A stretch of 64,000 bases of DNA, from NCBI GenBank assembly GCA_937924035.1, contig CALDTK010000083.1, positions 8,116 to 72,115 of the forward strand, given 5' to 3'. The notes below the pieces were generated by a model. That model had not been told where the DNA came from. It searched no databases and was given only the letters and a program-made list of their open reading frames with translations. Each line of letters opens with the position of its first letter. The first letter of the stretch is position 1. The stretch comes from an uncultured Saprospiraceae bacterium (GTDB lineage: Bacteria > Bacteroidota > Bacteroidia > Chitinophagales > Saprospiraceae). Positions 2,535 to 61,114 of the stretch are shown piece after piece. The position numbers were made by a program, and so were the translations under genes.

Positions 2535-3125
2535 ATGATTGCTATCGCAAAACGCATGTGGGGTGTAATGAAGGCACCAAGCGTTCACTACAGTTTGGGC
2601 TTTTTATCTTTGGGTGGTTTTTTGGCCGGGGTGATGTTCTGGGGAGGCTTCAATACCGCATTGGAGGCCACAAATACGGAGACGTTTTGCATTAGCTGCC
2701 ATGAAATGAAAAGTAATGTTTATCAGGAAATTAAGAGCACCATCCACTATACCAACCGATCTGGTGTGCGCGCTACTTGCCCTGATTGTCACGTGCCTCA
2801 TGAGTGGACTAACAAAATTGCGCGTAAAATGCAGGCATCGAAGGAAGTATGGGGACACATTTTCGGCACCATCAATACACGAGAGAAATTTCTTGCCAAA
2901 CGTGGAGAGTTAGCTCGTCACGAATGGTCAAGATTGAAAGCCAACGACTCACTTGAGTGTCGTAATTGCCATGATCTCACCTTCATGGACTTCACACGTC
3001 AAAGTATACGAGCGGAGCAGTCGCACAGTACGTTACTGGCCAGCGGTGAGAAGACTTGCATAGATTGCCACAAGGGCATCGCCCATGAACTCCCGGATAT
3101 GTCGGGTGTTGAAGGTTGGAAATAA
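2535..3125 (+). CDS. napC: membrane-anchored tetraheme cytochrome c, NapC/NirT family
   Basis: N-terminal TM helix ([19 protein letters not shown]). Four CxxCH motifs (CISCH, CPDCH, CRNCH, CIDCH). Lies directly after napAB. Confidence 0.9.
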
Positions 3126-4251: not shown

Positions 4252-7200
4252 ATGAATGCCGCTGAATTTGCAATTAAAAATCGCCTGATTAGTTTTTTGG
4301 TGTTGATGGGTTCATTAATTGGGGGGTTGTTAGCTTATCAAAACCTGCCGCGCTTTGAAGATCCTGAATTCACCATTCGCCAGGCACAAATAATTACTCA
4401 GTATCCCGGCGCCACGGCTGAAGAAGTTGCCACAGAGGTAACCGAGGCGCTTGAATCTGCCTTGCAACAAATGCAGGAAGTGGAGGAGATCAGTTCTATA
4501 TCATCCGCCGGCTTGTCACGTATAACGGTTGAATTCAAATTTAAGTTCTCACCAACTAAGTCCGATCTGCAGGGTATCTTTACTAAACTCCGCAATCGTG
4601 TCTCAGATGCGCAAAGCGCACTACCACCCAATGCAATGAAAACCATTGTTAACGATGATTTCGGCGATGTGTTCGGGCTTTACCTGCAGTTGACGGGTGA
4701 GGGGTATACACCGAAGGAACTTCACGACTACGCCAAAGCGCTGAGAATAGAATTATTATCGGTTGACGGAGTTGGAAAGGTAGTGCTCAACGGGATTCAG
4801 TCAGAGGCTATCTATGTCGAGGTGTCGAGGGAACGCGCTAATGCTCTGGGTGTATCGGTTTCACAGATATTCGATGATTTATCTCAGCAAAATTCAGTGG
4901 TGTCAGCGGGTACGGTTGACGTGGGTAACCAAACCCTGGTGATTACACCCAGCGGGAGAGTAGATTCAGTAACAGCCATTGAAGACCTTGTTGTGTCGAC
5001 AGCCACCAGTGGGACTCTGGTATACCTTCGTGACGTTGCAACCGTAAGTCGCAAATACCAGGATCCGCCGCAGATGGTCATGCGCTATAACGGCCAGCCG
5101 TCCCTGGGTATTGGTATTGCCAATGTGCTCGGTGGCAATGTCTCCAAAATGGGTAAAGCCATTGACGCAAAGCTTGCAGCGGGTCTGGAGCGCCGGCCTC
5201 TAGGTATGGAAGTTCACCAGTATTACCATCAAGGTAAAGTGGTGGATGTGGCAGTGTTTGAATTTGCCAAAAACGTGGTTGCGGCACTGGTTATTGTGCT
5301 CGTCACCTTGCTTATCTTTATGGGCCTCAAGTCGGCACTCATCATAGGCGCACTATTGTTGTTTACTATTGCTGCCACTTTGGCTGTGATGTCTATTGTG
5401 GGGCTGCCAATGCATCGCATCTCACTAGGTGCTTTAATCATCGCACTCGGTATGTTGGTAGATAATGCGATAGTTGTCGTCGATGGTATTTTGGTCGGTG
5501 TGCGACAAGGGCGTAAAAAGCTTGAAGTGGCTAAAGATGTTGTACAACGCACGCAGTGGCCGCTGTTGGCCGGAACTGTTGTAGGTATTCTAGCGTTCGC
5601 CCCTATCGGACTAACCGCTGGTAACATGCGAGAGTTTGCCGGGCATCTTTTTTGGGTAGTATTAATCTCTTTATTGTTCAGTTGGCTATTTGCTATCACC
5701 GCTGTGCCTTTACTAGCAGATATGCTGTTTAAAGAATCAGATCCTGCAGATCATCAAGTAAAACCTGAGGGTATCATGACACGTGGTTACAAGGGGTTCA
5801 TGCGTGGGGTACTTGCCGTGCGCTGGCTTATTGTGACTATGGTGATTGGACTGTTTGCGATGTCTATATATGGCTTCCAGTTTGTTAAATCAGGCTTTTT
5901 TCCAGCCTCCACTACTCCACAAATTGTAGTTGACTACTGGCTGCCTGAAGGCACATCCATAGGCCAGACCGAAGCCGATCTGTTGGTCATTGAAAAGAAA
6001 CTGCAATCGTTTGACGAAATAACCGATGTACATACCCTGGTAGGGGGCGGTGCGCTACGATTTACACTTGTATATGGCCCAGAAGCACCGAACTCTTCAT
6101 ACGGCCATTTCCTGCTTAAAGTATCTGACCATAACCTTATTCCGGATTTGTTGCCACAGATCCAAAACTACCTTGATCAGGAATTTCCAGATTCCCAGGC
6201 TAAAGTATGGCGCTTCCAGTTAGGCCCTGGTGGCGGTTCTAAAATCGAGGCAGCGTTTTCTGGGCCAGACCCTGTGGTGTTAAGACAATTAGCCAATCAA
6301 GCTAAAGCGATTCTGGCTGAAGACGGTGAAGCAATATCTATCAAAGATGATTGGCGCTCCCAAGTGCCAAGTATTCGACCGATTTATTCAGAGTCAAAAG
6401 GGCGACGACTGGGTATATCACGTGAAGATCTGGCGAGCGCATTAGCGGTTAATTACTCAGGTAAGTCGGTGGGTGCCTATCGTGAAGGTGATACACTTAT
6501 TCCGATCATCGCGCGCGCTCCAGCAACGGAAAGGCAGGGTGTAGATGGTATTAGCTCTGTTACCGTATTTAGTGGTGTCACCGGAAAGGCCGTGCCATTA
6601 AGTGAAACGGTTGATGGCTTTGAAACTCAATGGGTGAATGCACGCCTAAGGCGCGTTGATCGTGTATGGACTATTAAGGCACAGGCTGATCCTGTACCTG
6701 CCGTGTTGGCGTCTGTTGTCTATGAGCGTATTAAACCAAAAATCGAAGCGTTGGAATTACCCAGTGGTTACTCGTTAAAGTGGGATGGTGAACAGGGTGA
6801 TAGCTCTGAAGCGACCGGTGACTTGTTTGCAGCGATACCGATGGGAGTATTGGCCATGGTGTTAGTGGTCGTACTATTGTTTAACGCACTCAGGCAACCC
6901 CTGATCATATGGCTCGTTGTACCACTGGCATTAATTGGTGTGGTTTTCGGATTACTAGTAACCAACACAGCGATGGAATTCATGGCAATGTTGGGTCTGC
7001 TGTCCCTGTCTGGATTGTTGATTAAGAATGGCATCGTGCTGGTTGATCAGATGGATATAGAAATACGCGAAGGTAAGCCCCGGTTTGATGCCGTTGTTGA
7101 CTCTGCGACAAGCAGAGTGCGGCCTGTAATGATGGGGGCGCTAACAACTGTGCTTGGTGTGTTGCCGTTACTGACAGACGCTTTTTTCAAGTCGATGGCA

Positions 7201-20149: not shown

Positions 20150-21580
20150 GTGCCAAAGCTCTTTCAACATTTGGATGGTGCTGTAGCAGTGATGCTCACC
20201 GCCATCATCGGATCATTTGTTACCCCATCTTTTTTAACAGCAGATGAGCTACCTGTCGAGACTGCAAAGCTTACGGCCGCCCCGTCTGTACCACCTGTTA
20301 TCAATAGAGATAGCCCTGCTAAGGTGATCGTTAATCTCGATTCGATTGAGTTACAGGGAAAACTGGCTGACGGTGTGGATTATACATTCTGGACTTTTGG
20401 CGGCACTGTGCCTGGTAGCTTCATTCGTGTACGTGAGGGTGACGAGATTGAATTTCATTTAAACAATCACCCGTCCAGTAGGATGCCGCACAACATTGAC
20501 TTGCATGCGGTAACCGGCCCGGGCGGTGGTGCTACATCGTCATTTTCAGCCCCGGGCCATTCTTCAAAATTCTCATTTAAAGCACTGAATCCTGGATTAT
20601 ACGTGTACCACTGCGCGACGGCACCAGTGGGTATGCACATAGCGAATGGAATGTACGGATTGATTCTAGTTGAGCCGGAGAGCGGTTTGCCCGAAGTAGA
20701 TCGCGAATACTACGTGATGCAAAGCGAGTTTTACACGACTGGTGCCTATGGAGAGGAAGGTCTACAGCCGTTTGACATGCAAAAAGCATTGCTGGAAACC
20801 CCGGATTACGTTGTATTTAACGGGTCAGTCGGTAGTACCGTCGGGGACAAGGCCCTGAAAGCCGAGGTGGGCGAGACGGTCCGATTATTCGTTGGCAATG
20901 GTGGCCCGAATTTGATTTCATCGTTCCACGTCATCGGTGAAATATTTGACAAAGTCTATATTGAAGGTGGCACACTCACCAATGATAATGTTCAAACTAC
21001 GCTGATACCCGCAGGTGGAGCCGCCATCGTCGAATTCAAGGTAGATGTTCCCGGAACCTTCATAATGGTGGACCACTCAATTTTTCGTGCGTTCAACAAG
21101 GGAGCATTGGGGATGCTTGAGGTTAGTGGACCAGAAGACACGGCCGTATACACGGGAAAACAGGAAGATTCTATCTATCTACCTGAGGGAGGAGCACTAC
21201 AGAGTATAGCAGGCGGCGTTGCACCTGCCGCCACTATCGCTGAGAGTAAGGAGCAACGCGTCCAACTGGGTCAACGCATCTATGAGCAAAACTGCTCAGC
21301 TTGCCACCAACCGACAGGTCTCGGTATTCCTAACGCATTCCCACCACTTGCAGGTTCTGATTATCTGTTATCAGACCCAAGACGCTCTATCGAAGTATTA
21401 TTGGAAGGTCTGAGCGGCGAGGTGGTAGTTAACGGTGCAACCTATAACGGTGTTATGCCGGCGGTTAGTCTGAGCGATGAACAGGTTGCTAATGTGCTGA
21501 CCTATACATTGAACTCCTGGAATAACAACGGCGGAGAAATTACTCCGCTTGATGTTCAGGAAGTGCGATCATCTCACTAA
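20150..21580 (+). CDS. nirK: copper-containing nitrite reductase NirK with fused C-terminal cytochrome c domain
   Basis: GTG start 6 nt after AGGAG. Copper-ligand regions [13 protein letters not shown] and [21 protein letters not shown]-terminal about 100 aa carry CSACH plus a downstream Met (GVMPAV). Confidence 0.9.
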
Positions 21581-22440
21581 TGACATGTGTTTCAACACAA
21601 TGTAAAAGAACCGCCATGCTCACTGCAGGGCTGGCTTTAGTCTTCTCGGATTTTAACTTATTCGCTGCCTCTATCCAACAGGATATGGTGGTCATAGGCG
21701 GCGGTGAGTATAAGCCACTGTTTAACAACCCAACACTACCATCGCAAATAAAAGTAGAGAGTTACAACTTAGATCGCTACCTGGTAAGTAATGGTAAGTT
21801 TTCTTCGTTTATAACTGCACACCGACAATGGCGTAAATCAGAAGTAAAATCACTATTTGCTGACGAAAGGTATCTGCATCACTTTCCTAATGAGATAAAG
21901 CTTGAAAACACACTCTATGAAAAATCCAGTTCGTCCACTCTTGATTTTACGAATAGTTCTGAATCATGGCTTAATCAACCGGTAACTAATGTTTCGTGGT
22001 TTTCCGCTAGTGCATACTGTGCGAGTCAGGGCAAACGGCTACCAACTGTCTATGAATGGGAATATGCCGCTAGAGCGAGCAAAACAGAAATCGATGCCAC
22101 TAACAGTGTCGAACACCGCTCTCGCATACTAGAGTGGTACGGAACGTTAACAGGTAATGGATTGCCACCAGTGGCAGAGACGCCTGTTAATGTTTGGGGG
22201 GTTTATGGGATGCATGGTGTAGTGTGGGAAATGGTTGATGATTTTAACAGTGTCCTTGTTACTGGCGAATCTCGCGGTGATACACAACTGGAACGCAGTT
22301 TATTTTGCGGTGCTGGCGCTGCCTCCTCTACCAATCCATCAGACTATGCCGCCTTTATGCGTTACGCACTGCGGAGTAGCTACGAGGCAAACTATACGCT
22401 TGAAACCCTGGGTTTTCGGTGCGCAGGGGATCTAAATTAA
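21580..22440 (+). CDS. nirV: formylglycine-generating-enzyme (SUMF1) family protein, NirV-like
   Basis: ATG overlaps the nirK stop (TAATG). FGE/SUMF1-like motifs (VTNVSWFSASAYCASQGKRLPTVYEWEYAAR, GMHGVVWEMVDDF, GFRCAGDL). Position downstream of nirK. Confidence 0.75.
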   Translation: MTCVSTQCKRTAMLTAGLALVFSDFNLFAASIQQDMVVIGGGEYKPLFNNPTLPSQIKVESYNLDRYLVSNGKFSSFITAHRQWRKSEVKSLFADERYLHHFPNEIKLENTLYEKSSSSTLDFTNSSESWLNQPVTNVSWFSASAYCASQGKRLPTVYEWEYAARASKTEIDATNSVEHRSRILEWYGTLTGNGLPPVAETPVNVWGVYGMHGVVWEMVDDFNSVLVTGESRGDTQLERSLFCGAGAASSTNPSDYAAFMRYALRSSYEANYTLETLGFRCAGDLN

Positions 22441-22458
22441 CTAGGTGAGTGCTGAATT

Positions 22459-23046
22459 ATGATTGGCTATAAAATGAAAATAATGGCAGTGCTATTAGGC
22501 TGCTTATTTGCAATCAAAGGTTTTGGAACAGATGAATATCCTGAAAACTCTTTGTATCAACTCGAATCGAATTGGCAGACACATAATGCTGAAACTCTGT
22601 CTATCGCAGAGCTCTCGGGTCACTTACAGATAATGGCGTTCGTTTATACCTATTGCGAACATACCTGCCCTCTAATACTGGCTAAATTGAAGAGCATTGA
22701 GGCTTCGTTGCCAGAGGGATTAGTTGACCAAACTCGTTTTACACTTATCTCATTGGATCCAGAACGTGATACACCCGAAATACTCAAAGAGTATATGCTC
22801 GAACACAAACTTGATGAAAGTCGTTGGACCATGTTACACGCTGCTCCTGATAAGGTTCGGGAGATAGCCGCAGTTCTAGGTACCCGCTACCGTCCTATGG
22901 GACAGGACGACATCGCTCATTCAAATACGCTGACAATATTAGGTGCTGATGGTGTGGTAGTTCACCAGGCAAAAGGCCTTGGGGAGTCCAATAAGATGTT
23001 GATTGATGCTATTTTTAAACATAAGTTGACTATTACAGCTCAATAA
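22459..23046 (+). CDS. SCO1/SenC-family copper chaperone
   Basis: Thioredoxin-like protein with CEHTCP (CxxxCP) and a downstream His (DIAHSNT). Signal/anchor at the N-terminus. Confidence 0.8.
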   Translation: MIGYKMKIMAVLLGCLFAIKGFGTDEYPENSLYQLESNWQTHNAETLSIAELSGHLQIMAFVYTYCEHTCPLILAKLKSIEASLPEGLVDQTRFTLISLDPERDTPEILKEYMLEHKLDESRWTMLHAAPDKVREIAAVLGTRYRPMGQDDIAHSNTLTILGADGVVVHQAKGLGESNKMLIDAIFKHKLTITAQ

Positions 23047-24204: not shown

Positions 24205-25134
24205 TTAGAATATCCCAAAGTCATATTTGTAAGTTGCCCTCAGTATGTTTTCCTCATCGGACGCTGTGTCGTCATCCACGAACTGATATTCAAAATACAT
24301 TAATGCGGCTTTATCGAGCTTCAGTGTGTGGCCTAAAGTGAAGAATTGAGGGTTATTGAGGCCGCTATCTCCTCGATTATAAACGGCATACGTGTCGCCA
24401 AACGAACCAGTGAGCGTAAGATTGCTAAAACTATCATTCAAATCGGCAAAATGCTTATTAGCCCGCTGGTACCCTAGTGCCAGACCAAGCGGTCCAATGT
24501 CACCTTTAACGATGCCACCAACCAATGTGCCTCCTTCGTCGACACCATCATCCGCCTGGACAGAAGTAGCGAGTCCGAATAACAGGCTGCCCGCGGTGTA
24601 GTTGAAGCCAATCTCGAATTGATCGACCGCATCATTACCATCATCTTCCGGATTTCCCTGCAGTGATGCGGAATAGCTCAAAGCGCCTGACTGCCCGTTG
24701 TACTTCAATACCCGGGTTTCACGGCCACACTCAAATTGGGTCCAACAACTTCCCCACCAGGCTATATCGGTATGGCCGGAGACCATATCGTAGAAGCTGG
24801 CGTATTGCGCTCCAATTTTTACGCTACCGAAATCAGCCTTTAATCCGCCCCATGCTTGCCTGGTGTTATCTATTCCAGAGAACCCACCCTCATTGCTGTC
24901 AGGGTTGAACCCAAACTCCAGGTAGCCAATTGCAGTGAGCTCATTTCCAATTTCATTCTCACCCGACCATATAACTCTGGATCCAAAATTACTAAAGGAG
25001 AAATCACTATCAACGGTTTCACTATCTACGAAGGTGGCACCAATTCGTAGACTAGCAGTTAAGTTGGTTGATGCCGCCATTGACAGCTGTGACACTGTAG
25101 CAGCGATGGTACTAATCAAGTATCGTTTCTTCAT
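24205..25134 (-). CDS. general porin (Gram-negative porin family)
   Basis: Signal peptide. Gly/Asp/Tyr-rich beta-strand pattern. C-terminal ...ATYKYDFGIF ends in an aromatic residue, as in trimeric porins. Confidence 0.75.
   Translation of the reverse strand: MKKRYLISTIAATVSQLSMAASTNLTASLRIGATFVDSETVDSDFSFSNFGSRVIWSGENEIGNELTAIGYLEFGFNPDSNEGGFSGIDNTRQAWGGLKADFGSVKIGAQYASFYDMVSGHTDIAWWGSCWTQFECGRETRVLKYNGQSGALSYSASLQGNPEDDGNDAVDQFEIGFNYTAGSLLFGLATSVQADDGVDEGGTLVGGIVKGDIGPLGLALGYQRANKHFADLNDSFSNLTLTGSFGDTYAVYNRGDSGLNNPQFFTLGHTLKLDKAALMYFEYQFVDDDTASDEENILRATYKYDFGIF
25104..25123. repeat. 20-nt direct repeat, copy 1 (inside the porin signal-peptide coding region)
   Basis: CGATGGTACTAATCAAGTAT matches 25221..25240 (CGATGGTTCTAATCAAGTAT) at 19 of 20 positions. 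Confidence 0.85.
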
Positions 25135-25325: not shown

Positions 25326-26606
25326 CTAGGGTTTTAACGACAAAATCCAGGTAGCAAGTTGTTTCGCTTGTTCATTATCCACGCTGGGGTTGGCTGGCAT
25401 AGGGATATCCCCCCAGATGCCTGTCCCACCAGCGATAATTTTTTCTGACAATAACTCTGTTGCTTCCGGGGTGTTGAAGTATTTCGCAGCAATATCATTA
25501 AAAGACGGCCCGACAAGTTTTTTGTCGACGCTATGACAGGCTAAACAATTGTTGGTTTTGGCAATTTTCTCCGCAGATTCTTGACCGGGAGCCGCCGCCG
25601 CTGTTGCTGCTACCGAATCCATTAGCACCAGTGATTTAGTGCAGCTGGGTAACCAGGTTTTCCAGATGTTACTGTTTTCACTGATCCAGCGATTGGCGGC
25701 TTCCTCCGGACTCATCTCATCGATCTCCGCCAGCGATGCTGCGGCGGCGAGTTGTCGGGTGCCAAGGTTAATTTTGCTTAACACTGCAAATGCACATGAC
25801 CATTTTTCCTGAAAACCACTCCAAGTTGCTTTTTTTAGCCACCCTTCAACAGGGTTGCCGCAATCATGCGTCAGGTTTGGGTTCAATCCCCAGCTTGCAT
25901 CGTTCTCACATTCAGGCGTATGTGCTGGGAACTCAACGAAGCTCCCTGGGTATTTTGTATCAACCCAATTGGGTGTCCAGTTCATTAGTAATATGGGGGT
26001 CTTTTTTTGCCAGGCCCTTTCCAGCTCCATCCACAATGTGGCGCTGTTGGGTACATTGACTACCGTGTAGTTAAGTTTCAAGGCTTCGATTCTTTCTCGA
26101 TCAGGGCGCTCCCAGTCCATGGGGCCAGCGAGATAACGACCGGCGGGCTCTGTTTCAGGTGTTGCCAGCGCATGGGCGCAATCGTTAAGCGCTTTCCAAT
26201 TTGGCAGTCCGGGGCAGATATCTATCATATACTCCGGATACCACCAGTCTTCACGCGTTTTGGCACGGTGAGTTCCGACACCCACCATACGCTGACGGCT
26301 TAACTGCTGATTGAATGATTCAGCCATCGTGCCTTCCCAAATTTCTACTTGCACATGAAGGTTACCATTGCCGATTGTTTGAAATTGTGTTTGTGTATCA
26401 GCAGGGTGAAACTCAACGTTGTAACCAATACGAGAGAGCAGGTTGCCCGTAACATGCGACAGCACTTGTTGGCTTGACCAGTTATTGATTGCTATTTTTA
26501 TCGGATCAGCTGACTCACCTGCAAATGTGCTTGGCGCAAGTTGCAAAATGGCGACAGCAATTAATGCGCGCAGGATGCATGCGTGGTGTTTGATCATTAG
26601 TTTCAT
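25326..26606 (-). CDS. ProX/OpuAC-like periplasmic substrate-binding domain fused to a C-terminal monoheme cytochrome c
   Basis: Signal peptide. Betaine-binding-protein-like body (NNWSSQQV, EIWEG, WWYPEY, LLMNWTPNWV). C-terminal CLACHSVDKKLVGPSFNDIAAKY...GIWGDIPMPAN resembles class I cytochrome c (c551/c552-like). Confidence 0.75.
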   Translation of the reverse strand: MKLMIKHHACILRALIAVAILQLAPSTFAGESADPIKIAINNWSSQQVLSHVTGNLLSRIGYNVEFHPADTQTQFQTIGNGNLHVQVEIWEGTMAESFNQQLSRQRMVGVGTHRAKTREDWWYPEYMIDICPGLPNWKALNDCAHALATPETEPAGRYLAGPMDWERPDRERIEALKLNYTVVNVPNSATLWMELERAWQKKTPILLMNWTPNWVDTKYPGSFVEFPAHTPECENDASWGLNPNLTHDCGNPVEGWLKKATWSGFQEKWSCAFAVLSKINLGTRQLAAAASLAEIDEMSPEEAANRWISENSNIWKTWLPSCTKSLVLMDSVAATAAAAPGQESAEKIAKTNNCLACHSVDKKLVGPSFNDIAAKYFNTPEATELLSEKIIAGGTGIWGDIPMPANPSVDNEQAKQLATWILSLKP

Positions 26607-26615
26607 GTTCGCTCC

Positions 26616-29264
26616 TTAATTAGCATCTTTTGCGTTTTCTGATAGATACTGCATAACGAGCGCACGCTCCCGGGCATCCAGTCCGGCGCGTGGAAACATG
26701 CTCTGTGTAATACCTTGCCACTGTTTAACCGAATAGTCACCAGGCTCTCGCGGTACATGGCAGAGTGTACAGCGTCCATAGAACAGTGCTTCACCAGGAC
26801 TCATATCAGCCAATGTGTTTGATTTAAGATTTTGAACTCTACCTTTTATATCAAGCCGACTAAGATCTATGGCCTCGTCGGTTACGATCACCTTAGGTGG
26901 ATGATAAGCACGATTCTCATTTTCAGGGTCAACGCATTTCTTTACCCATGCAACGCAGGTGTTCGCAGCGGTAGCCTGGCTTAGACCACTGCTCGCAATA
27001 CTGGATGTCAGAGTGTTAACAGCGCCACTGTTGCATCGCCCTTTGCTATCTAGTGAGAGCCAAACACCCTCCTGGATACTAATTACGCCTTTCATGATCT
27101 TGTGCCATATTTTCGCCCCACCAATCAATGAGCCCCGGTCGTTGTAGACTTCTATCAAATCACCGTTGTCTATGCCGCGCTCCTCCGCATCATCTGGGTT
27201 GATAAAAATAAATTCCCGACCTTGTATGTTGTCTATGTTTCTCACTGTGGTATTTGCCATCTGCGAATGCAGACGATTACGTGGATGTGGACTTACCACA
27301 TGTAACTGACCTTGTTTGGCATTGCCGAGGAATTCGAACGGCTCCATCCACTTTGGCATCGGCGGGCAGTCTGCGATGTCAAAGCTTGAGATGGTGGTGC
27401 TATACATTTCAATTTTACCGGATTCGGTATGTAGCGGGTGCTCGGCAGGTGAACGATAGAAATCGCTGTGTCGTACCCATTGACGTGCATCCTCAGGGAC
27501 TTTGACTGGTGCAACACCTTGCTTCCAGAACTCATCGAAAGGTAGTGTCGCAGAACAGTTTTCGTACGAAGATTTAATGATCTCCATAACACTTCTACCC
27601 TCAGTAAACTGCCGCTCTACACCGAAGAGCGACGCTAACCGACGAAATATTTCAAAGTCGTCAAGACTTTCCCCGACAGGTTCGATCACCTGACGCATAG
27701 CATAGACTTTATCGTTGCTGTAAGTACCGCCGGAACTTATATCGTTTCGCTCTAAGGTGCTAGAAGCGGGCAAGACAATATCTGCGTACTGCATAGACGC
27801 GGTCCACCAGGGATCTTGACACACAATAGTGTCGACCTTCTTTCGCAGTGCCCAGATAAGTTCGTTGGTATCCTGCTGATGACTGAGATAGTTAACACCG
27901 GCGTTGTAAATCATGCGTACCCGAGGGTAGTGATGTAATTGTCCATCACGTTTAAAAGGTGCTCCGGGATTCATCAGCATCTCGGTGATACGAGAAGCCG
28001 GACAACGTGTCTTGACTGGGTTTCGGCCCTGTGATAATCCGGTTGGCATAGTGCCGCCAGATTGTGGCATCCCGCCTCCACCGTAGTGCCAGCTGAATCC
28101 GACCCCTTGTCCGGGCTTGCCTATTTTCCCTGCCAGTGCTGCAAAATTGATGATGGCCCAGTGCGTCATTTCCCCGTGGTGAGCCCGCTGTAGTGACCAG
28201 GCACCTGCAATCTGCGTTCGCTTTGAAGCGAATAGCTCAGCAAGCTCGGCAATTTTCTTTGCGGGTATTCCAGTTATCTTTTCAGCCCATTCAGGCGTTT
28301 TTGGTGGACTACCGTCCTCGTCCTGACCCATCAGGTAACGGATAAATTTTTCCGAACCGACGGTGTAGGTGGCAACGTACTGCGAATCGTGCTTACCGTT
28401 TTTAACCAAGTAATAGGACATGGATAAAAACAATGCGGTATCGGTGTTAGGTATTATCTTTACCCAGTCCGACTTAAGTGCGTCATCCGTCATCGTGTAT
28501 TGCGGGTTTATACTGATAAATTTAACACCCGCTTGCTTAATTTGAGCCCAGTGCGGATACATTTGATGATCAGGAACAGTAAATTCGATACGATTATTTT
28601 TAAAAGGGTCACAGCCTACCAATACAAATATTTCAGTGTTGTCTCGAATCTCTTCCCAAGATGTCTGCGGCGAATAGACTTCCATGTCACCGATAATATG
28701 GGGTAGGCTAATCTGAGACGCGCCGCCGGAATAATCACCCGTGGTAGTGGTACAGCCGCCGATAAGTCCAAACAATCTACCTTGAAGGACATTGGGTCTG
28801 AATATACCAGAATGACTCCAGCCACCGTAAGAGCTGCTGAACACGGCTTCGTTATCATAGCGCTCAATGGTTTCAAGAACGGCATTCGCAGCGAGTTCCA
28901 ACGCCACCTCCCAGCTAACCCTGACGAACGGTTCCTTTCCTCGTTTTTCAGGTGCAGAGTAGCCGCCAATATTTTCGAGATAGGATTTTCTAACCATCGG
29001 ATACATAACGCGTGTCCGATGGTAGGTACGGCTGAGAATACCCTCGACCAACATTCGTGTTGGCATCGCGTCCAGAGAGACGATCGGTTTAACGCCGATG
29101 AGACGCCCGTCTTTTACTACCGCATGAAAAGGTCCGTAGTGCGAAGCATGGGGTATGATTTTCGTATCTTTACCAAAAACAGTCTCCGGACTAAACAGCG
29201 TTAATCCGCCGCCCAAAGTAACGGCTGATGTTGTTTTCAGAAACTGGCGGCGAGTTACCGACAT
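26616..29264 (-). CDS. Tat-exported molybdopterin S-/N-oxide reductase family enzyme (TorA/DorA/BisC type) with fused C-terminal cytochrome c domain
   Basis: Twin-arginine signal (TRRQFLKTTSAV). No N-terminal Cys cluster. BisC/TorA-like blocks (HYGPFHAVVKDGRLIGVKP, VMYPMVRKSYLE, SYGGWSHSG). Extra about 85 C-terminal aa with CTLCH and a downstream Met (TQSMFPRAG). GGAGG Shine-Dalgarno. Confidence 0.8.
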   Translation of the reverse strand: MSVTRRQFLKTTSAVTLGGGLTLFSPETVFGKDTKIIPHASHYGPFHAVVKDGRLIGVKPIVSLDAMPTRMLVEGILSRTYHRTRVMYPMVRKSYLENIGGYSAPEKRGKEPFVRVSWEVALELAANAVLETIERYDNEAVFSSSYGGWSHSGIFRPNVLQGRLFGLIGGCTTTTGDYSGGASQISLPHIIGDMEVYSPQTSWEEIRDNTEIFVLVGCDPFKNNRIEFTVPDHQMYPHWAQIKQAGVKFISINPQYTMTDDALKSDWVKIIPNTDTALFLSMSYYLVKNGKHDSQYVATYTVGSEKFIRYLMGQDEDGSPPKTPEWAEKITGIPAKKIAELAELFASKRTQIAGAWSLQRAHHGEMTHWAIINFAALAGKIGKPGQGVGFSWHYGGGGMPQSGGTMPTGLSQGRNPVKTRCPASRITEMLMNPGAPFKRDGQLHHYPRVRMIYNAGVNYLSHQQDTNELIWALRKKVDTIVCQDPWWTASMQYADIVLPASSTLERNDISSGGTYSNDKVYAMRQVIEPVGESLDDFEIFRRLASLFGVERQFTEGRSVMEIIKSSYENCSATLPFDEFWKQGVAPVKVPEDARQWVRHSDFYRSPAEHPLHTESGKIEMYSTTISSFDIADCPPMPKWMEPFEFLGNAKQGQLHVVSPHPRNRLHSQMANTTVRNIDNIQGREFIFINPDDAEERGIDNGDLIEVYNDRGSLIGGAKIWHKIMKGVISIQEGVWLSLDSKGRCNSGAVNTLTSSIASSGLSQATAANTCVAWVKKCVDPENENRAYHPPKVIVTDEAIDLSRLDIKGRVQNLKSNTLADMSPGEALFYGRCTLCHVPREPGDYSVKQWQGITQSMFPRAGLDARERALVMQYLSENAKDAN

Positions 29265-29282: not shown

Positions 29283-29312
29283 ATGTTAATAACCTTGATG
29301 TTAATAACCTTG
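29283..29312. repeat. perfect tandem duplication of a 15-mer just upstream of the molybdoenzyme RBS
   Basis: ATGTTAATAACCTTG x2 on the plus strand (CAAGGTTATTAACAT x2 in gene orientation). It ends 8 nt before the GGAGG Shine-Dalgarno. Confidence 0.9.
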
Positions 29313-33513: not shown

Positions 33514-34941
33514 ATGAAAGCGTTTTTTATTCCAATGTGGCTATTGCTTTTGCTTCCAGTTCGCAATGCATCTGCATCAAGCTCAGAAATTGTATTGCAA
33601 AATCTGACGCAACACTGGACCGGTTTACTGGGATTGGTAATTTTCGTACTGGCGTATTTGTTTGTCACTGGCGAGGAACCACTAAGCCTTAAAAAATCAA
33701 AACCTATGTTGGTAGCCGCTGGCTTGATCTGGGTGCTGGTGGCGATCGGCTACACTGGCCAAGGAGATTCCCATTCAGCTGAAGCGATATTCAGAACCAC
33801 AATAGAACACTTCACTGAATTGTTTTTATTCTTACTCGCCGCAATGACGTATGTGAATGCCATGAGTGAACGGGGATTATTTGCTCAAATTAGTCAATGG
33901 CTGCAGTCACATAATTTCTCGCTTCGCAGTATCTTCTGGATGACCGGTGTCCTTACATTCATACTGTCGCCGTTAATTGCCAATCTAGCTGTCGCGTTAT
34001 TAATGGTAACTATACTTATCGGGGTCGCACCGAATAACCGTTCGTTTCTTGTGGCAGGATCAATCAGCATAGTAATAGCTTCCAATGCTGGGGGAATCTA
34101 TTCACCACTGGGTGATATATCCAGTTTGATGGTTTGGCAACGTGGCTTGCTTGATGTGCACGATTTTCTACGCTTGTTTCTCCCTGCACTGAGCTGCTGG
34201 TTGATACCGGCAATCGCCTTATCTGTATCTGTGGAGTCAGTAAAGCCCGAACCGGTAGCACAGACCCAAACGCTACAAGAAGGGGCGGGCGTAATCGTTA
34301 TTTTGTTTGTGCTGACACTAGCGTTGGCTGTGGTTTTTGAGAGCGTATTGAGACTACCGGCTGTCATCGGAATGATGACTGGCCTGGGGTTTCTAAAACT
34401 TTATGGGTACCGGTTAAAGCGTCGTGGCGTTAAACATCTCGCGCGATCAGCGTCTTTTCACAACGGTACAACTAATGATCGCGAATCGGGTGAGGAACAC
34501 GCTTTCGATATTTTCCGATCACTGGAGCGATCAGAATGGGATACCCTAATGTTCTTACTTGGAATTGTTATGGCCATCAGTGGCCTGTACGCCATGGGGT
34601 TTCTGTTGCTTACTTCAGAGGTACTTTACGGCAGCCTTGGCCCGACAACCGCTAATCTCTTACTTGGTGTCATGTCTGCGTTGGTTGAGAATGTTGCAGT
34701 TATGTACAGCGTGCTGGGTATGCAGCCTGAGATGAGTCATTCGCAATGGTTACTGGTCACGTTTACAGCGGGTGCAGGAGGCTCCCTGTTGTCCATCGGT
34801 TCAGCGGCGGGAGTCGCTGTTATGGGCCAGGCACGGGGTATCTATACCTTTATGGCACACTTGCGTTGGACTTGGGTCATAGCACTGGGTTACGGAGTCG
34901 GCGCCTGGCTACATCTATATTTGAATTCACGGGGTATTTAA
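33514..34941 (+). CDS. nhaD: NhaD-family Na+/H+ antiporter, divergent paralog
   Basis: Multi-TM protein clearly homologous to the next gene and to NhaD (KSKPMLVAAGLIW, ELFLFLLAAMTYVNAM, FRSLERSEWDTLMF, GSLLSIGSAAGVAVMGQARG). Several conserved polar motifs are altered. Confidence 0.8.
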   Translation: MKAFFIPMWLLLLLPVRNASASSSEIVLQNLTQHWTGLLGLVIFVLAYLFVTGEEPLSLKKSKPMLVAAGLIWVLVAIGYTGQGDSHSAEAIFRTTIEHFTELFLFLLAAMTYVNAMSERGLFAQISQWLQSHNFSLRSIFWMTGVLTFILSPLIANLAVALLMVTILIGVAPNNRSFLVAGSISIVIASNAGGIYSPLGDISSLMVWQRGLLDVHDFLRLFLPALSCWLIPAIALSVSVESVKPEPVAQTQTLQEGAGVIVILFVLTLALAVVFESVLRLPAVIGMMTGLGFLKLYGYRLKRRGVKHLARSASFHNGTTNDRESGEEHAFDIFRSLERSEWDTLMFLLGIVMAISGLYAMGFLLLTSEVLYGSLGPTTANLLLGVMSALVENVAVMYSVLGMQPEMSHSQWLLVTFTAGAGGSLLSIGSAAGVAVMGQARGIYTFMAHLRWTWVIALGYGVGAWLHLYLNSRGI

Positions 34942-36419
34942 TGATGGCTCTCTTGAACTTAGTTGCTTTAGGGAAGCGATCTATCAGCGTAATTGTATCT
35001 GTGACTCTATTGTGCTCCAGTTCAACAGTAAGCGCATCGGATGTGGCGTCTTACACCAATACATGGATGGGTTACCTGTGTCTGTTGATTTTTGTCGGTG
35101 CCTATGTGCTTGTCATTGCTGAAGAATCGTTGCATCTGCGCAAATCTAAACCAATGATGGTAGCTGCCGGTGCAATCTGGATTCTGGTCGCTATCTCCGT
35201 ATCCCAACACTCTGACCCCGCATTAGCCAGCAAGGCCGTTAGCCACAACTTGATGGAGTTTGGCGAGCTGTTCCTGTTCTTACTGGTTGCGATGACCTAT
35301 ATCAACGCCATGGATGAGCGCGGTGTATTTGATGTGTTGCGTAGCTGGTTAATATCGCAGGGTTTTTCCCTGCGCACCATCTTCTGGATAACCGGCGGCT
35401 TGGCGTTTGTGATCTCCCCCATTGCTGACAACCTGACTACAGCGCTGCTGATGGCAACAGTGGCTATGGCGGTAGGGGGCAATAATAAGAAATTCGTCAC
35501 AGTTGCCTGTATCAATATTGTAGTGGCTGCTAATGCGGGTGGCGCGTTCAGTCCTTTTGGTGATATCACTACGCTCATGGTTTGGCAAAAAGGTATATTG
35601 CCGTTTCAAACGTTTTTCAAACTGATCCTGCCCTCATTGGTCAATTGGCTTGTACCGGCAGTAATCATGTTTACTGTTGTGCCGCGTGGAAAACCTGAAA
35701 TCGAAGATGACGCAGCGAATTTGCATCCCGGGGGCATTGCCATCAGTCTGTTGTTCCTGTTAACAATTGCGATGGCGGTGTCATCGCATAACTTCCTGCA
35801 CATGCCACCCGTGCTTGGGATGTTACTGGGGCTCGGCTTTCTTAAAATCTACTCGCACTTTCTACAAAAGCGCGACGAGAGTTTTCCTGAGCCTGCGTAT
35901 TCCAATTTTTCAGAGCACGCACTAAATGTTGAGTCCGCAGATGCGCATACTCCAAGAGTTAAGACAGCACCGTTCGATATTTTTCGATCGCTTGAACGTG
36001 CCGAGTGGGACACTTTAATGTTTTTCTATGGCATCATCCTTTGCGTGGGTGGCTTGGGAACGCTAGGTTACTTGGAATTAGTATCGAATGTCATGTATGG
36101 GGGGCTCGGTGCTACATTTGCTAATATATCCGTGGGATTTTTGTCGGCGCTAATTGATAATATCCCGGTTATGTTTGCTGTGCTGTCGATGTTGCCGGAA
36201 ATGGATGAGGGCCAGTGGCTGTTGGTAACACTGACGGCAGGCGTGGGTGGATCGATGCTGTCTATTGGTTCAGCTGCCGGTGTGGCTGTTATGGGGCAGG
36301 CGCGTGGAACTTATACCTTTTTCGCTCACTTAAAGTGGTCCTGGGCGGTGTTACTGGGCTACATCGCGAGTATAGCAGTGCATTTCTGGGTGAACGCTGC
36401 GCTATTTGACTCTGTGTAG
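34941..36419 (+). CDS. nhaD: NhaD-family Na+/H+ antiporter (canonical motifs)
   Basis: ATG at 34941 overlaps the previous stop (TAATG). Motifs SPIADNLTTALLM, FGDITTLMVW, SALIDNIPVM, GSMLSIGSAAGVAVMGQARG. The track start at 34746 lies inside the upstream gene. Confidence 0.85.
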   Translation: MMALLNLVALGKRSISVIVSVTLLCSSSTVSASDVASYTNTWMGYLCLLIFVGAYVLVIAEESLHLRKSKPMMVAAGAIWILVAISVSQHSDPALASKAVSHNLMEFGELFLFLLVAMTYINAMDERGVFDVLRSWLISQGFSLRTIFWITGGLAFVISPIADNLTTALLMATVAMAVGGNNKKFVTVACINIVVAANAGGAFSPFGDITTLMVWQKGILPFQTFFKLILPSLVNWLVPAVIMFTVVPRGKPEIEDDAANLHPGGIAISLLFLLTIAMAVSSHNFLHMPPVLGMLLGLGFLKIYSHFLQKRDESFPEPAYSNFSEHALNVESADAHTPRVKTAPFDIFRSLERAEWDTLMFFYGIILCVGGLGTLGYLELVSNVMYGGLGATFANISVGFLSALIDNIPVMFAVLSMLPEMDEGQWLLVTLTAGVGGSMLSIGSAAGVAVMGQARGTYTFFAHLKWSWAVLLGYIASIAVHFWVNAALFDSV

Positions 36420-56469: not shown

Positions 56470-56480
56470 GAATCTCTCCT

Positions 56481-57449: not shown

Positions 57450-57548
57450 GGACTTCTCCTTTTGTCCTCGTTTAACTGTGCGCGGGCATACTATTGCCAA
57501 CTCTCGTTTTAATTCGACTTGCAGCTGTTAACTTCTTCTACTCAGATC

Positions 57549-60892: not shown

Positions 60893-61071
60893 GCTAGTTT
60901 AGTAACTAACTTTGAATCTATTAAAATAACAAAAGCTGTTCGAGCATTACCCGCTACCTGACGAGTAAGGCTACTTTGATAAAATAGGATCCGTTTCATG
61001 ATAGATTCCGTATGTTATTTATGTTAGCAACGACGGAATTGTTGTGATGTTTTCGCGAACCATAATCACTA

Positions 61072-61095: not shown

Positions 61096-61114
61096 CATTC
61101 CGTTTAAAGTGCAC

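What the first reader, a model, noticed from the sequence alone, without database searches (positions are those of the whole stretch)
25326..26606. Orphan ProX/OpuAC-like binding protein fused to cytochrome c, coupled to the molybdoenzyme
This gene starts 9 nt after the molybdoenzyme stop. It encodes a betaine/choline/TMAO-type substrate-binding fold with aromatic-box-like Trp residues (NNWSS, EIWEG, WWYPEY, NWTPNWV). A c551/c552-like monoheme domain (CLACH...IPMPAN) follows.

There are no ABC permease or ATPase genes nearby, so it is unlikely to act in transport. The ProX/OpuAC family includes binders of quaternary amines and TMAO.

A binding domain tethered to a redox domain next to an N-/S-oxide-type molybdoenzyme suggests two possible roles. 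It could capture substrate and deliver it together with electrons. Alternatively, it could make electron transfer to the enzyme depend on ligand binding.

A porin gene lies immediately downstream on the same strand, so the three genes could form one uptake-plus-redox module. I am not aware of a described system of this design.
Basis: partly seen in the sequence, partly recalled or inferred. Interest (0 to 1): 0.65.

Follow-up and report, generated by a model that had tools for sequence, protein, structure and literature searches.

The report
TMAO-binding protein fused to reductase's cytochrome
A binding protein that normally feeds trimethylamine N-oxide (TMAO) to an importer is here fused to a small cytochrome c and always sits next to a TMAO/DMSO-type molybdenum reductase, so a periplasmic respiratory enzyme seems to have acquired its own substrate-catching, electron-carrying partner, a design we found described nowhere.

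Summary
Gene 25326-26606 (-) encodes a Sec signal, a binding domain, a ~21-residue flexible linker and a c551/c552-type monohaem cytochrome.

- **Binding domain:** it is specifically TmoX, the TMAO-binding protein of the TmoXVW importer (PDB 4XZ6, E 2e-97). All four box tryptophans and the TMAO-oxygen-binding glutamate are kept.
- **Upstream gene:** it lies 9 nt away and encodes a Tat-exported Dor/Tor-type S-/N-oxide reductase. Its C-terminus carries a haem domain homologous to the last haem domain of TorC (= TorB of Campylobacter jejuni).
- **Linkage:** all six distinct fusion loci with usable flank have this enzyme directly upstream, and no other neighbour is shared.
- **Evolution:** the fusions form one clade. 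Their sister is an unfused orphan TmoX that also follows this enzyme. The next relatives are true tmoXVW transporter genes. The TmoX-linked enzymes are one subclade of a reductase family found in at least 77 species.
- **Not supported:** the porin is not conserved in the other loci.

Best reading: a TorC-independent TMAO reductase whose soluble cytochrome partner gained a high-affinity TMAO-capture domain. Hand-off, ligand gating and the direction of catalysis are untested. It is a new variant of a known kind. No description was found in the literature searched.

The parts
26616..29264 (-). Molybdoenzyme, 882 aa. It has a Tat signal (TRRQFLK), a Dor/Tor-type bis-MGD S-/N-oxide reductase core (aa ~39-794) and a C-terminal monohaem domain.
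   Evidence: Pfam gives Molybdopterin_N, Molybdopterin, Molydop_binding and TAT_signal. NCBIfam bisC_fam scores 848 bits, below the 1017 cutoff, and TorA scores 653 bits. The best PDB match is DorA 1DMS at 602 bits, ahead of MtsZ/TorZ 7L5I and TorA. The Mo ligand Ser147 corresponds to S179 and Tyr114 to Y146. Trp116 corresponds to W149, with a one-residue insertion. These residues are invariant in 77 family members.
26619..26795 (-). C-terminal haem domain of the molybdoenzyme (aa 824-882; C832-x-x-C835-H836, M856). It is homologous to the fifth-haem C-terminal domain of TorC, which equals TorB of C. jejuni.
   Evidence: It matches NCBIfam TorC TIGR02162 positions 325-382 (E 3.7e-07). It aligns without gaps to the C-terminus of a Shewanella TorC-type pentahaem cytochrome (E 6e-07). 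tblastn confirms the match. CxxCH and the Met are present in 75 of 77 relatives, the other two having a gap there. The role of this domain is described in PMC11727998 and PMC6195509.
26607..26615 (-). A 9-nt spacer, GGAGCGAAC, between the two genes. It holds the ribosome-binding site of the downstream gene.
   Evidence: Read directly from the sequence. No terminator-like site lies between the genes.
26517..26606 (-). Sec-type signal peptide of the fusion protein (aa 1-~30, with a probable ...STFA/GE cleavage site).
   Evidence: Translation shows a hydrophobic helix at aa 5-22 in the model. The cleavage site is inferred. There is no lipobox.
25647..26516 (-). TmoX-type TMAO-binding domain (aa ~31-320). 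Pocket residues are W43, W90, M94, E119, W165, M208 and W210.
   Evidence: It aligns without gaps to PDB 4XZ6, 'TmoX in complex with TMAO' (E 2.1e-97). The AF2 model has pLDDT >95 here. Foldseek puts 4XZ6 first (TM 0.93, rmsd 2.0 A, E 2e-36), ahead of DmpX (7e-17). Pocket residues are mapped from PMC8918994.
25584..25646 (-). Flexible linker (aa ~321-341), low-complexity and Ala/Thr/Ser-rich.
   Evidence: pLDDT is about 50. The segment from the TmoX end to the CxxCH motif is 33-41 residues long in the fusion homologues. Its central Ala/Thr/Ser-rich part is not conserved in sequence.
25329..25583 (-). Class I monohaem cytochrome c domain of the c551/c552 type (aa 342-426; C354-x-x-C357-H358, Met in IPMPAN).
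   Evidence: PDB matches are N. europaea c552 1A56 (E 7.9e-23), P. stutzeri c551 1COR (6.7e-21) and P. aeruginosa c551. Pfam PF00034 also matches.
24205..25134 (-). Porin (Porin_4), 191 nt downstream on the same strand. Its membership in the system is doubtful.
   Evidence: Pfam gives E 4.7e-19. The window porin has no tblastn match in any related locus. No porin is called next to the pair in the five other fusion loci or the unfused L084 locus. An unrelated porin is divergently adjacent in some betaproteobacterial relatives.
29283..29312 (-). Perfect 15-nt tandem direct repeat, CAAGGTTATTAACAT x2, ending 18 nt upstream of the molybdoenzyme ATG. It may be a regulator binding site or an artefact. 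Function unknown.
   Evidence: Read directly from the sequence. It is not present upstream of the orthologues.

Best explanation
The two genes form a self-contained periplasmic TMAO (S-/N-oxide) reductase cassette that does not use a TorC-type quinol dehydrogenase.

**Gene 1** is a Dor/Tor-type molybdenum reductase. It has the electron-entry haem domain of TorC (equivalent to TorB of Campylobacter jejuni) fused to its C-terminus.

**Gene 2** is the enzyme's soluble partner. It is a c551-type cytochrome that brings electrons from the membrane chain to that haem domain. The likely source is the bc1 complex or a NapC/NirT-type tetrahaem protein. Onto this cytochrome evolution has grafted TmoX, the sub- to low-micromolar TMAO-binding protein of the TmoXVW importer, through a flexible linker of about 21 residues.

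**Most likely role of the TmoX domain:** it captures TMAO at the nanomolar to low-micromolar levels of sea water. When the cytochrome domain docks, TMAO is held at, or handed into, the enzyme's substrate funnel. This would lower the apparent Km of respiration, as binding proteins do for ABC and TRAP transporters.

**Shown here:** the domain identities, the conserved pocket and cofactor ligands, the exclusive gene linkage, and the evolutionary order (transporter TmoX, then orphan TmoX next to the enzyme, then TmoX-cytochrome fusion).

**Inferred:** TMAO as the ligand and substrate, the reductive direction, the electron route, and the hand-off itself.
For: **1. The binding domain is TmoX.**
- It matches 4XZ6 at E 2e-97 without gaps. 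Foldseek TM is 0.93, far ahead of any other osmolyte binder.
- The four box tryptophans and Glu131, which hydrogen-bonds the TMAO oxygen, are conserved.
- Homologues at 54-57% identity lie in tmoXVW operons with Tdm or Tmm.
- Measured TmoX Kd for TMAO is 0.52-1.6 uM, with little binding of TMA, DMA or betaine. Sea-water TMAO is nM to low uM (PMC8918994).

**2. Linkage.**
- Six of six distinct fusion loci with usable flank have the 882-885-aa (991 aa as called in L086) Mo enzyme directly upstream: the window, L001-L003, L004, L069, L086 and L095. No other neighbour is shared.
- The unfused sister P0020 (L084) also follows an 80%-identical Mo enzyme and has no ABC genes nearby.

**3. Phylogeny.**
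- The fusions form the minimal clade in the NJ tree, though that node recurs in only 13/30 bootstrap replicates. Fusions plus P0020 group in 30/30 bootstraps.
- The TmoX-linked Mo enzymes are a monophyletic subclade at 77-82% identity. The other relatives are at 58-68%.

**4. The enzyme looks like a reductase.**
- It has the Dor/Tor core with the Ser ligand, Tyr114 and Trp116 equivalents.
- Its fused domain is homologous to TorC's C-terminal haem domain, which donates electrons to TorA.
- C. jejuni TorA works with a soluble TorB of this type and depends on the bc complex (PMC6195509).
- Family members in other genera sit next to TorS-like kinases and OmpR-type regulators, next to a TorC-type pentahaem gene in Shewanella, or are followed by a free c551 in Zoogloea.

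**5. Anaerobic context.**
- napABC, nirK-cytochrome c, arcABC and dcuC are all in the window.
- FNR-type boxes lie upstream of the orthologous operons: a perfect one in L004 and a one-mismatch one in L084.

**6. Architecture.**
- The linker is flexible and variable.
- The Sec signal fits periplasmic haem attachment.
Against: - There are no biochemical, expression or genetic data. Only DNA metagenome runs hold this sequence.
- c551/c552 cytochromes usually have potentials of about +200 to +290 mV (my own knowledge). TMAO/TMA is +130 mV (PMC6195509). Electron flow from a typical c551 to TMAO would therefore be uphill unless this domain has a lower potential.
- A passive enzyme has no ATP-driven step to open a tight binding protein. 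Hand-off would need a modest affinity or docking-induced opening.
- Pocket position 220 is Phe in all 110 unfused homologues but Met, Tyr or Leu in the fusions. The ligand or its affinity may therefore differ.
- The window itself has no FNR box upstream. No torD-type chaperone domain was hit in any ORF scanned.
- Whole genomes could not be searched, so a tmoVW transporter or a TorS kinase encoded elsewhere is not excluded.
Confidence: 0.55

Rival explanations
1. Ligand-gated electron shuttle. The TmoX domain acts as a sensor. Its closure on TMAO changes how the tethered cytochrome docks or its potential. Electrons from the shared cytochrome c pool would then reach the reductase only when substrate is present.
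For: The architecture is the same as for the best explanation. Binding-protein closure on ligand is a general property of the fold. TmoX-like domains are reused as sensor modules elsewhere, fused to a Ser/Thr kinase (P0130) and to EAL/GGDEF domains (P0160). The window also encodes NirK-cytochrome c and Nap, which would compete for the same electrons.
Against: The linker is long, variable and modelled as disordered. That is a poor transmitter of conformational change. The unfused sister TmoX (L084) is linked to the same enzyme without any cytochrome, so the binding domain's role does not require the haem domain.
Confidence: 0.15
2. The enzyme runs in the oxidative direction, as a periplasmic TMA (or DMS):cytochrome c oxidoreductase. 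The partner protein would collect both products: electrons on the c551 domain and TMAO on the TmoX domain, perhaps for passage to an importer and Tdm.
For: Thermodynamics favour TMA to TMAO (+130 mV) feeding a typical c551 (about +250 mV, my own knowledge). Molybdenum enzymes that oxidise DMS, arsenite or sulfite use soluble cytochromes c (established knowledge). NirK-cytochrome c lies 3 kb away and could be a sink.
Against: All characterised Dor/Tor/BisC/MtsZ enzymes are reductases (PMC8166771). The fused haem domain is the electron-donating domain of TorC. Relatives sit with TorS/TorR-like regulators or TorC-type quinol dehydrogenases. FNR boxes occur in orthologous loci. No tmoVW or tdm gene is near any of the loci.
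Confidence: 0.12
3. The protein is still an ordinary transporter binding protein for a TmoVW importer encoded elsewhere. The cytochrome domain and the neighbouring reductase would only reflect a shared TMAO regulon.
For: The domain is 54-57% identical to bona fide TmoX proteins of tmoXVW operons. Whole genomes could not be searched.
Against: No ABC genes occur in the 64-kb window. None is called next to the pair in the six related loci examined: L001-L003, L004, L084, L086 and L095, plus the 3-kb L069 fragment by ORF scan only. The fusion/orphan clade is separate from the transporter clade and strictly tied to the enzyme. Translational-coupling-like spacing of 9 nt joins it to the reductase gene. 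A bulky C-terminal cytochrome is not known on any transporter binding protein of this family among 1.84 billion representatives.
Confidence: 0.1
4. The protein is a co-receptor for a TorS-type sensor kinase, an analogue of TorT that reports periplasmic TMAO.
For: TorT is a binding protein that presents TMAO to TorS (PMC8050422 was listed; its content is my own knowledge). In L094 a TorS-like kinase lies directly beside tmoX genes. Relatives of the enzyme sit next to TorS-like kinases.
Against: No kinase or regulator gene occurs in the window near the pair or in any of the fusion loci. This reading does not explain the cytochrome domain.
Confidence: 0.05

Closest known systems
TmoX of the TmoXVW TMAO importer (Ruegeria pomeroyi DSS-3, PDB 4XZ6; SAR11 TmoX1062)
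   Same: The fold is the same, with about 55% identity over 306 residues and no gaps. The four-Trp box and the Glu that binds the TMAO oxygen are the same.
   Different: No TmoV or TmoW partner genes are present. A C-terminal linker and a cytochrome c domain are added. Pocket Phe220 is replaced by Met (Met, Tyr or Leu across the fusion clade). The gene is coupled to a reductase gene instead of tdm or tmm.
Campylobacter jejuni TorA/TorB (Cj0264/Cj0265), the bc-complex-dependent TMAO reductase (PMC6195509)
   Same: [quoted passage not shown] No TorC quinol dehydrogenase is involved, and electrons are expected to come from the cytochrome bc complex or cytochrome c pool.
   Different: Here the TorB-like domain is fused to the enzyme's C-terminus. 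An extra c551-type cytochrome is encoded, and it carries a TMAO-binding domain. Nothing like this is reported for C. jejuni.
E. coli TorCAD with TorSTR, and Rhodobacter DorCDA
   Same: The catalytic subunit is of the same type, Tat-exported with a Ser-ligated bis-MGD. The best PDB match is DorA.
   Different: No pentahaem TorC/DorC gene, TorD/DorD chaperone gene or TorS/T/R genes lie at the locus. NCBIfam bisC_fam and TorA scores are below their cutoffs.
TorT, the periplasmic TMAO-binding protein of the TorS sensor
   Same: It is a periplasmic binding protein for TMAO that serves a non-transport partner in a Tor system.
   Different: TorT belongs to a different binding-protein family, the sugar-binding Peripla_BP type (my own knowledge). 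Its partner is a kinase, not the enzyme, and it has no cytochrome.
Cytochrome c551/c552 (NirM of Pseudomonas, c552 of Nitrosomonas europaea)
   Same: The domain shows about 50-55% identity, with the CxxCH motif and the PMP Met ligand. These are soluble periplasmic electron carriers between membrane complexes and periplasmic reductases.
   Different: Here it is tethered to a solute-binding domain. A free c551 follows the related enzyme in Zoogloea.
Binding-protein-dependent transporters (ABC, TRAP, TTT), as a working analogy
   Same: A high-affinity binding protein captures a scarce solute and presents it to a partner that has lower intrinsic affinity.
   Different: The proposed partner is a soluble enzyme, not a membrane transporter. 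No energy input for ligand release is apparent.

Membership tests
TmoX (TMAO-specific binding protein, OpuAC/cluster F-III) | OpuAC fold, with closer similarity to TmoX than to other osmolyte binders | tested here: met
   Pfam OpuAC gives E 1.6e-38. 4XZ6 matches at E 2e-97, against 3.8e-08 for the next binder. Foldseek puts 4XZ6 first with TM 0.93.
TmoX (TMAO-specific binding protein, OpuAC/cluster F-III) | Aromatic box Trp55, Trp102, Trp177 and Trp222, plus Glu131 | tested here: met
   W43, W90, W165, W210 and E119 are present.
TmoX (TMAO-specific binding protein, OpuAC/cluster F-III) | Cage residues Phe106 and Phe220 | tested here: not met
   Both are Met (M94, M208). Position 106 also varies in operon-encoded TmoX. 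Position 220 is Phe in 110/110 unfused homologues and Met, Tyr or Leu only in the fusions.
TmoX (TMAO-specific binding protein, OpuAC/cluster F-III) | Encoded with the TmoV ATPase and TmoW permease | tested here: not met
   No homologue occurs in the 64-kb window. None is called next to the pair in the related loci (L069 by ORF scan only). The rest of the genome is not available.
TmoX (TMAO-specific binding protein, OpuAC/cluster F-III) | Measured TMAO binding | not testable with these tools
   This needs ITC or DSF on the purified domain.
Class I cytochrome c, c551/c552 group | N-terminal CxxCH, a distal Met in a PMP motif, a size of about 80 aa, and periplasmic export through Sec | tested here: met
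   C354/C357/H358 and IPMPAN are present. 1A56 matches at E 7.9e-23 over 78 residues. A Sec-type signal lies at the protein's N-terminus. Haem attachment itself is not testable here.
Dor/Tor-type S-/N-oxide reductases (type III DMSO reductase family) | Tat signal, no N-terminal FeS motif, a Ser ligand to Mo, and active-site Tyr/Trp | tested here: met
   TRRQFLK is present. Molybdopterin_N matches rather than an Fe4S4 domain. S179, Y146 and W149 correspond to DorA S147, Y114 and W116 and are invariant in the family.
Dor/Tor-type S-/N-oxide reductases (type III DMSO reductase family) | Score above the curated family cutoffs (bisC_fam, TorA) | tested here: not met
   bisC_fam scores 848 bits against a cutoff of 1017. 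TorA NF011682 scores 653 against 909. The protein is a distinct subfamily with a one-residue insertion (SYGGW) and an added haem domain.
TorAB-type (TorC-independent) TMAO reductase, as in C. jejuni | A monohaem domain homologous to the TorC C-terminal domain associated with the enzyme, and no TorC gene | tested here: met
   Here the domain is fused rather than separate.
TorAB-type (TorC-independent) TMAO reductase, as in C. jejuni | Dependence of TMAO reduction on the cytochrome bc complex | not testable with these tools
   This needs genetics or inhibitor studies in a host.
TorCAD/TorSTR system | A pentahaem TorC, a TorD chaperone and TorS/T/R encoded with torA | tested here: not met
   None lies at the locus. 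The only NapC/NirT-type protein in the window is NapC at 2535-3125.

The most novel reading that the evidence does not exclude
This is a binding-protein-dependent enzyme. A solute-binding domain taken from an ABC importer now feeds a soluble periplasmic respiratory reductase directly. Because it is fused to the reductase's cytochrome, one docking event brings both substrate and an electron. Binding-protein-assisted catalysis, so far known for transport and signalling, would then extend to periplasmic redox enzymes. It would let bacteria respire TMAO at nanomolar ocean concentrations.
Probability: 0.4. Interest if true: 0.85.

Novelty: new variant of a known kind. Interest (0 to 1): 0.68.

Why it matters
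**Ecology.** TMAO is an abundant marine osmolyte. Its reduction to volatile TMA matters for the marine nitrogen cycle and for fish spoilage. Known Tor enzymes have Km values far above sea-water TMAO levels (my own knowledge). A reductase with its own sub-micromolar substrate catcher would explain how TMAO respiration could pay at environmental concentrations.

**Concept.** Solute-binding proteins are known to serve transporters and sensors. A binding protein recruited by an enzyme would be a third use. The evolutionary intermediates are still visible: transporter TmoX, then an orphan next to the enzyme, then the cytochrome fusion.

**Testability.** The cassette has two genes, moves between unrelated genomic contexts, and should be directly testable by heterologous expression.

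**Wider gap.** The work also exposes an uncharacterised but widespread reductase family with a fused TorB-like haem domain. It occurs in at least 77 species, including Thauera, Aromatoleum, Stutzerimonas stutzeri, Photobacterium, Aliivibrio, Shewanella and Paracoccus.

Tried and rejected
- **Metagenome scan with the fusion protein.** It returned only six distant unfused TmoX loci and added nothing.
- **Sequencing runs.** Only three marine metagenome DNA runs hold the sequence and no RNA run does, so co-transcription could not be tested.
- **Promoter and terminator scan.** Hits were no more frequent than in shuffled sequence. There is no terminator between the two genes or before the porin.
- **FNR box search.** Boxes are present upstream of the orthologues in L004 and L084 but not in the window.
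- **Porin as a third component.** Rejected, because the window porin has no counterpart in any related locus.
- **PDB search with the enzyme's C-terminal haem domain alone.** No significant match. The homology rests on the NCBIfam TorC model and the direct comparison.
- **Crude ORF calling in high-GC relatives.** It produced many spurious antisense ORFs. Two candidate neighbours had no Pfam hit and were dropped.
- **Other OpuAC + cytochrome c architectures.** A search of 1.84 billion representatives found none outside this protein's own 50% cluster and one fragment.
- **Literature searches.** No description of the fusion was found. The library covers open-access papers only.
- **Glycine betaine/ProX-type specificity.** Considered and rejected, because those structures match far worse than TmoX.
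Full report
**1. What is in the sequence**

The ORF at 25326-26606 (minus strand) encodes 426 aa. Pfam finds OpuAC (E 1.6e-38, aa 34-309) and Cytochrom_C (E 3.7e-08, aa 346-425).

The gene upstream (26616-29264, minus) ends 9 nt before the start codon. The spacer GGAGCGAAC carries the ribosome-binding site. A Porin_4 gene follows 191 nt downstream on the same strand.

None of the large ORFs of the window that were scanned has an ABC permease or ATPase domain. TmoV, TmoW, Tdm and TorS queries find nothing in the 64 kb.

**2. Identity of the two domains**

*Binding domain.* It is not a generic ProX.
- It aligns without a gap to PDB 4XZ6, TmoX of Ruegeria pomeroyi in complex with TMAO (E 2.1e-97). 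The next binder of the family scores 3.8e-08.
- An AlphaFold2 model built on 50 homologues has pLDDT above 95 throughout this domain.
- Foldseek returns 4XZ6 first (TM 0.93, rmsd about 2 A, E 2e-36). The DMSP binder DmpX (7e-17) and OpuAC, ChoX and ProX follow.

*Binding pocket.* The published TMAO pocket of TmoX is Trp55, Trp102, Phe106, Glu131, Trp177, Phe220 and Trp222 (PMC8918994).
- With the gapless offset of 12, these map to W43, W90, M94, E119, W165, M208 and W210.
- The four box tryptophans and the glutamate that hydrogen-bonds the TMAO oxygen are kept. Both phenylalanines are methionine.
- Across 120 homologues, position 106 varies even in operon-encoded TmoX.
- Position 220 is Phe in all 110 unfused proteins and Met, Tyr or Leu in all ten cytochrome fusions. 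This is a clade-specific change in the pocket.

*Cytochrome domain.* It matches Nitrosomonas c552 (E 7.9e-23) and Pseudomonas c551. It has CxxCH and the PMP methionine.

*Linker and export.* Between the domains lies a stretch of about 21 residues of Ala/Thr/Ser-rich sequence. It is modelled with pLDDT of about 50, and the anchor-to-anchor span is 33-41 residues long. Its central part is not conserved among the fusions. This indicates a flexible tether. The N-terminus is a Sec-type signal, as c-type haem attachment requires.

**3. The neighbouring enzyme**

The 882-aa protein has a twin-arginine signal and the Molybdopterin_N, Molybdopterin and Molydop_binding domains, with no FeS domain.
- NCBIfam places it nearest bisC_fam and TorA but below both cutoffs.
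- The best solved relatives are Rhodobacter DMSO reductase (602 bits), then MtsZ/TorZ and TorA.
- The Mo-ligand Ser147, Tyr114 and Trp116 of DorA correspond to S179, Y146 and W149, the last with a one-residue insertion (SYGGW).

Residues 824-882 form an extra domain with C832-x-x-C835-H836 and M856.
- It matches positions 325-382 of the TorC model.
- It aligns without gaps to the C-terminal fifth-haem domain of a Shewanella TorC-type cytochrome (E 6e-07).
- In E. coli this TorC domain is the one proposed to pass electrons to TorA (PMC11727998).
- In Campylobacter jejuni the same domain exists as a free protein, TorB. There, TMAO reduction depends on the cytochrome bc complex instead of TorC (PMC6195509).

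The enzyme is therefore a TorA-TorB-type fusion.

**4. Comparative genomics**

*Distribution of the enzyme.* The enzyme with its haem domain occurs in 77 loci of the species-representative genome collection. Identity is 58-68% over the full length, apart from a 78%-identical partial Cycloclasticus copy (L069) and one 38% outlier (L082). Genera include Aromatoleum, Thauera, Zoogloea, Stutzerimonas stutzeri, Photobacterium, Aliivibrio, Vibrio, Shewanella, Azospirillum, Paracoccus and Gemmobacter. Y146, W149 and S179 are invariant; CxxCH and M856 are present in 75 of 77, the other two having a gap there.

*Which relatives carry the TmoX gene.* In that set only the Cycloclasticus MAG fragment is followed by a TmoX-cytochrome gene. 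Look-ups of the fusion homologues add four more distinct loci:
- a Competibacteraceae MAG and related contigs (L001-L003),
- L004,
- L086,
- L095.

Each has an 883-885-aa Mo enzyme directly upstream (991 aa as called in L086) and otherwise unrelated neighbours. That makes six of six distinct loci.

*The unfused intermediate.* The closest unfused homologue, P0020 (62% identity), lies directly after an 80%-identical Mo-haem enzyme in an alphaproteobacterial MAG. It again has no ABC genes nearby.

*Trees.*
- In a neighbour-joining tree of the binding domain, the eight full-length fusions form the minimal clade. That node recurs in only 13 of 30 bootstrap replicates.
- P0020 is their sister. Fusions plus P0020 group in 30/30 bootstraps.
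- The next relatives, P0022 and P0024, lie in tmoX-ABC operons with Tmm or Tdm. So does the Leisingera homologue.
- The seven TmoX-linked enzymes form a monophyletic subclade of the enzyme tree.

The order of events is thus legible: transporter TmoX, then an orphan TmoX beside the reductase, then fusion to a c551.

*Rarity.* A search of 1.84 billion 50%-identity representatives found no other OpuAC-cytochrome c architecture outside this protein's own cluster, apart from one fragment. TmoX-like domains do occur fused to a Ser/Thr kinase, a caspase, a trypsin-like protease and EAL/GGDEF domains, and as tandem repeats.

**5. What the relatives say about function**

- In Paracoccaceae such as Gemmobacter (L050), the enzyme gene sits beside a TorS-like hybrid kinase (TorS_sensor_domain) and an OmpR-type regulator.
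- Homologous large ORFs flank the enzyme gene in Azospirillum, Aromatoleum and Thauera.
- In four Shewanella species a TorC-type pentahaem gene is divergently adjacent.
- In Zoogloea a free 101-aa c551, 51% identical to our cytochrome domain, follows the enzyme gene.
- The orthologous operons in L004 and L084 are preceded by FNR-type boxes: TTGATCCATATCAA at -102 and TTGATCGGTGTCAA at -92. The window is not.
- The window also encodes NapABC, a NirK-cytochrome c fusion with NirV and SenC, the arginine deiminase pathway and DcuC. This is an anaerobic-energy neighbourhood.

Together these point to a respiratory reductase of TMAO-type substrates that takes electrons from a soluble c-type cytochrome.

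**6. Mechanism proposed**

*Electron route.* Electrons leave the quinol pool through the bc1 complex or a NapC/NirT-type tetrahaem protein. They reduce the c551 domain, pass to the TorB-like haem domain, and then reach the Mo centre, which reduces TMAO to TMA.

*Role of TmoX.* TmoX proteins bind TMAO with Kd 0.52-1.6 uM and barely bind TMA, DMA or betaine. Sea-water TMAO is nanomolar to low micromolar (PMC8918994). The tethered TmoX domain therefore most plausibly captures scarce TMAO. It would present the TMAO at the enzyme's funnel when the cytochrome docks.

*Why the cytochrome is not essential to that role.* The unfused orphan in L084 shows that the binding domain's association with the enzyme predates the cytochrome and does not depend on it. 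Fusion would simply raise the chance that substrate and electron arrive together.

*Status of the steps.* Shown here are the domain identities, ligand-site conservation, linkage and phylogeny. Inferred are the ligand, the direction, the electron route and the hand-off.

**7. Difficulties and rivals**

*Difficulties.*
- Typical c551 potentials (about +200 to +290 mV, my own knowledge) lie above TMAO/TMA (+130 mV). The reductive route needs a lower-potential domain or tolerates an uphill step.
- A passive enzyme has no obvious way to open a tight binding protein. The clade-specific change at pocket position 220 might weaken binding for that reason, but this is speculation.

*Rivals.*
- Ligand-gated electron transfer: disfavoured by the disordered linker and by the unfused orphan.
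- An oxidative TMA:cytochrome c oxidoreductase whose partner collects both products: favoured thermodynamically, but disfavoured by family biochemistry, TorS and TorC neighbours, and FNR boxes.
- An ordinary transporter binding protein with partners elsewhere: disfavoured by the strict enzyme linkage and the separate clade.
- A TorT-like co-receptor: there is no kinase at any fusion locus.

**8. The porin**

The porin is not part of a conserved module. It has no counterpart in any related locus. A different porin lies divergently beside the enzyme gene in some betaproteobacteria, which may be coincidence.

**9. Provenance, literature and verdict**

The sequence is held only by marine metagenome DNA runs. 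A 90%-identity cluster mate of the window's NapC comes from a Granulosicoccaceae MAG, which hints at the lineage.

Six full-text searches found no description of a TmoX/OpuAC-cytochrome fusion or of a binding protein serving a Tor-type enzyme. The library is open-access only, so absence is not proof.

Verdict: this is a real, rare and evolutionarily coherent two-gene cassette. It is a new variant of the TMAO reductase system. Its most interesting reading, a binding-protein-assisted periplasmic enzyme, is plausible and directly testable.

Noticed in passing
window 26616-29264 (-), and loci L007-L083: The whole reductase family combines a twin-arginine (Tat) signal with a C-terminal c-type haem domain. 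Tat exports folded proteins, whereas c-type haem is attached in the periplasm to unfolded protein. How this tail is exported and matured is unclear. The combination is conserved in at least 75 of the 77 aligned family sequences.
   Followed up: partly
window 29283-29312 (-): A perfect 15-nt tandem direct repeat, CAAGGTTATTAACAT x2, ends 18 nt upstream of the molybdoenzyme start codon. It is absent from the orthologous upstream regions. It may be a regulator site or an assembly artefact.
   Followed up: partly
L004 about 102 nt and L084 about 92 nt upstream of the Mo gene: FNR/Dnr-type boxes (TTGATCCATATCAA; TTGATCGGTGTCAA) precede the orthologous operons. The window has none within 330 nt.
   Followed up: yes
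window 20150-23046 (+): A copper nitrite reductase NirK with a fused C-terminal class I cytochrome c domain is followed by NirV (FGE-sulfatase family) and SCO1/SenC. It is a second case in this window of a periplasmic redox enzyme with a fused cytochrome c.
   Followed up: partly
window 54961-63998 (-): Six consecutive ORFs of 234-678 aa have no Pfam or NCBIfam match (the 234-aa ORF was scanned against NCBIfam only). They lie in a block of lower G+C (0.40-0.45, against 0.45-0.49 in the first 36 kb). This may be a foreign or uncharacterised island.
   Followed up: partly
L094 1-10104: A TorS-like hybrid kinase and an OmpR-type regulator lie directly beside a tmoX-ABC-usp-tmoX-tdm cluster with two TmoX paralogues. 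One TmoX might serve the kinase as TorT does in E. coli.
   Followed up: no
proteins P0130, P0188, P0209, P0160, P0121: TmoX-like domains occur fused to a Ser/Thr protein kinase, a caspase domain, a trypsin-like protease and GGDEF/EAL domains. They also occur as double and triple tandem repeats, for example L085 with an ABC transporter and Tmm.
   Followed up: partly
L043, L045, L046, L080 (Shewanella) about 4670-5824 (-): A TorC-type pentahaem cytochrome gene is divergently adjacent to the haem-fused reductase gene. These species would therefore have both a full TorC and a TorC-C-terminal-like domain on the enzyme.
   Followed up: no
window 33514-36419 (+): Two overlapping ORFs (33514-34941 and 34746-36419) both hit the CitMHS transporter family. 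This may be a duplication or a frameshifted gene pair.
   Followed up: no
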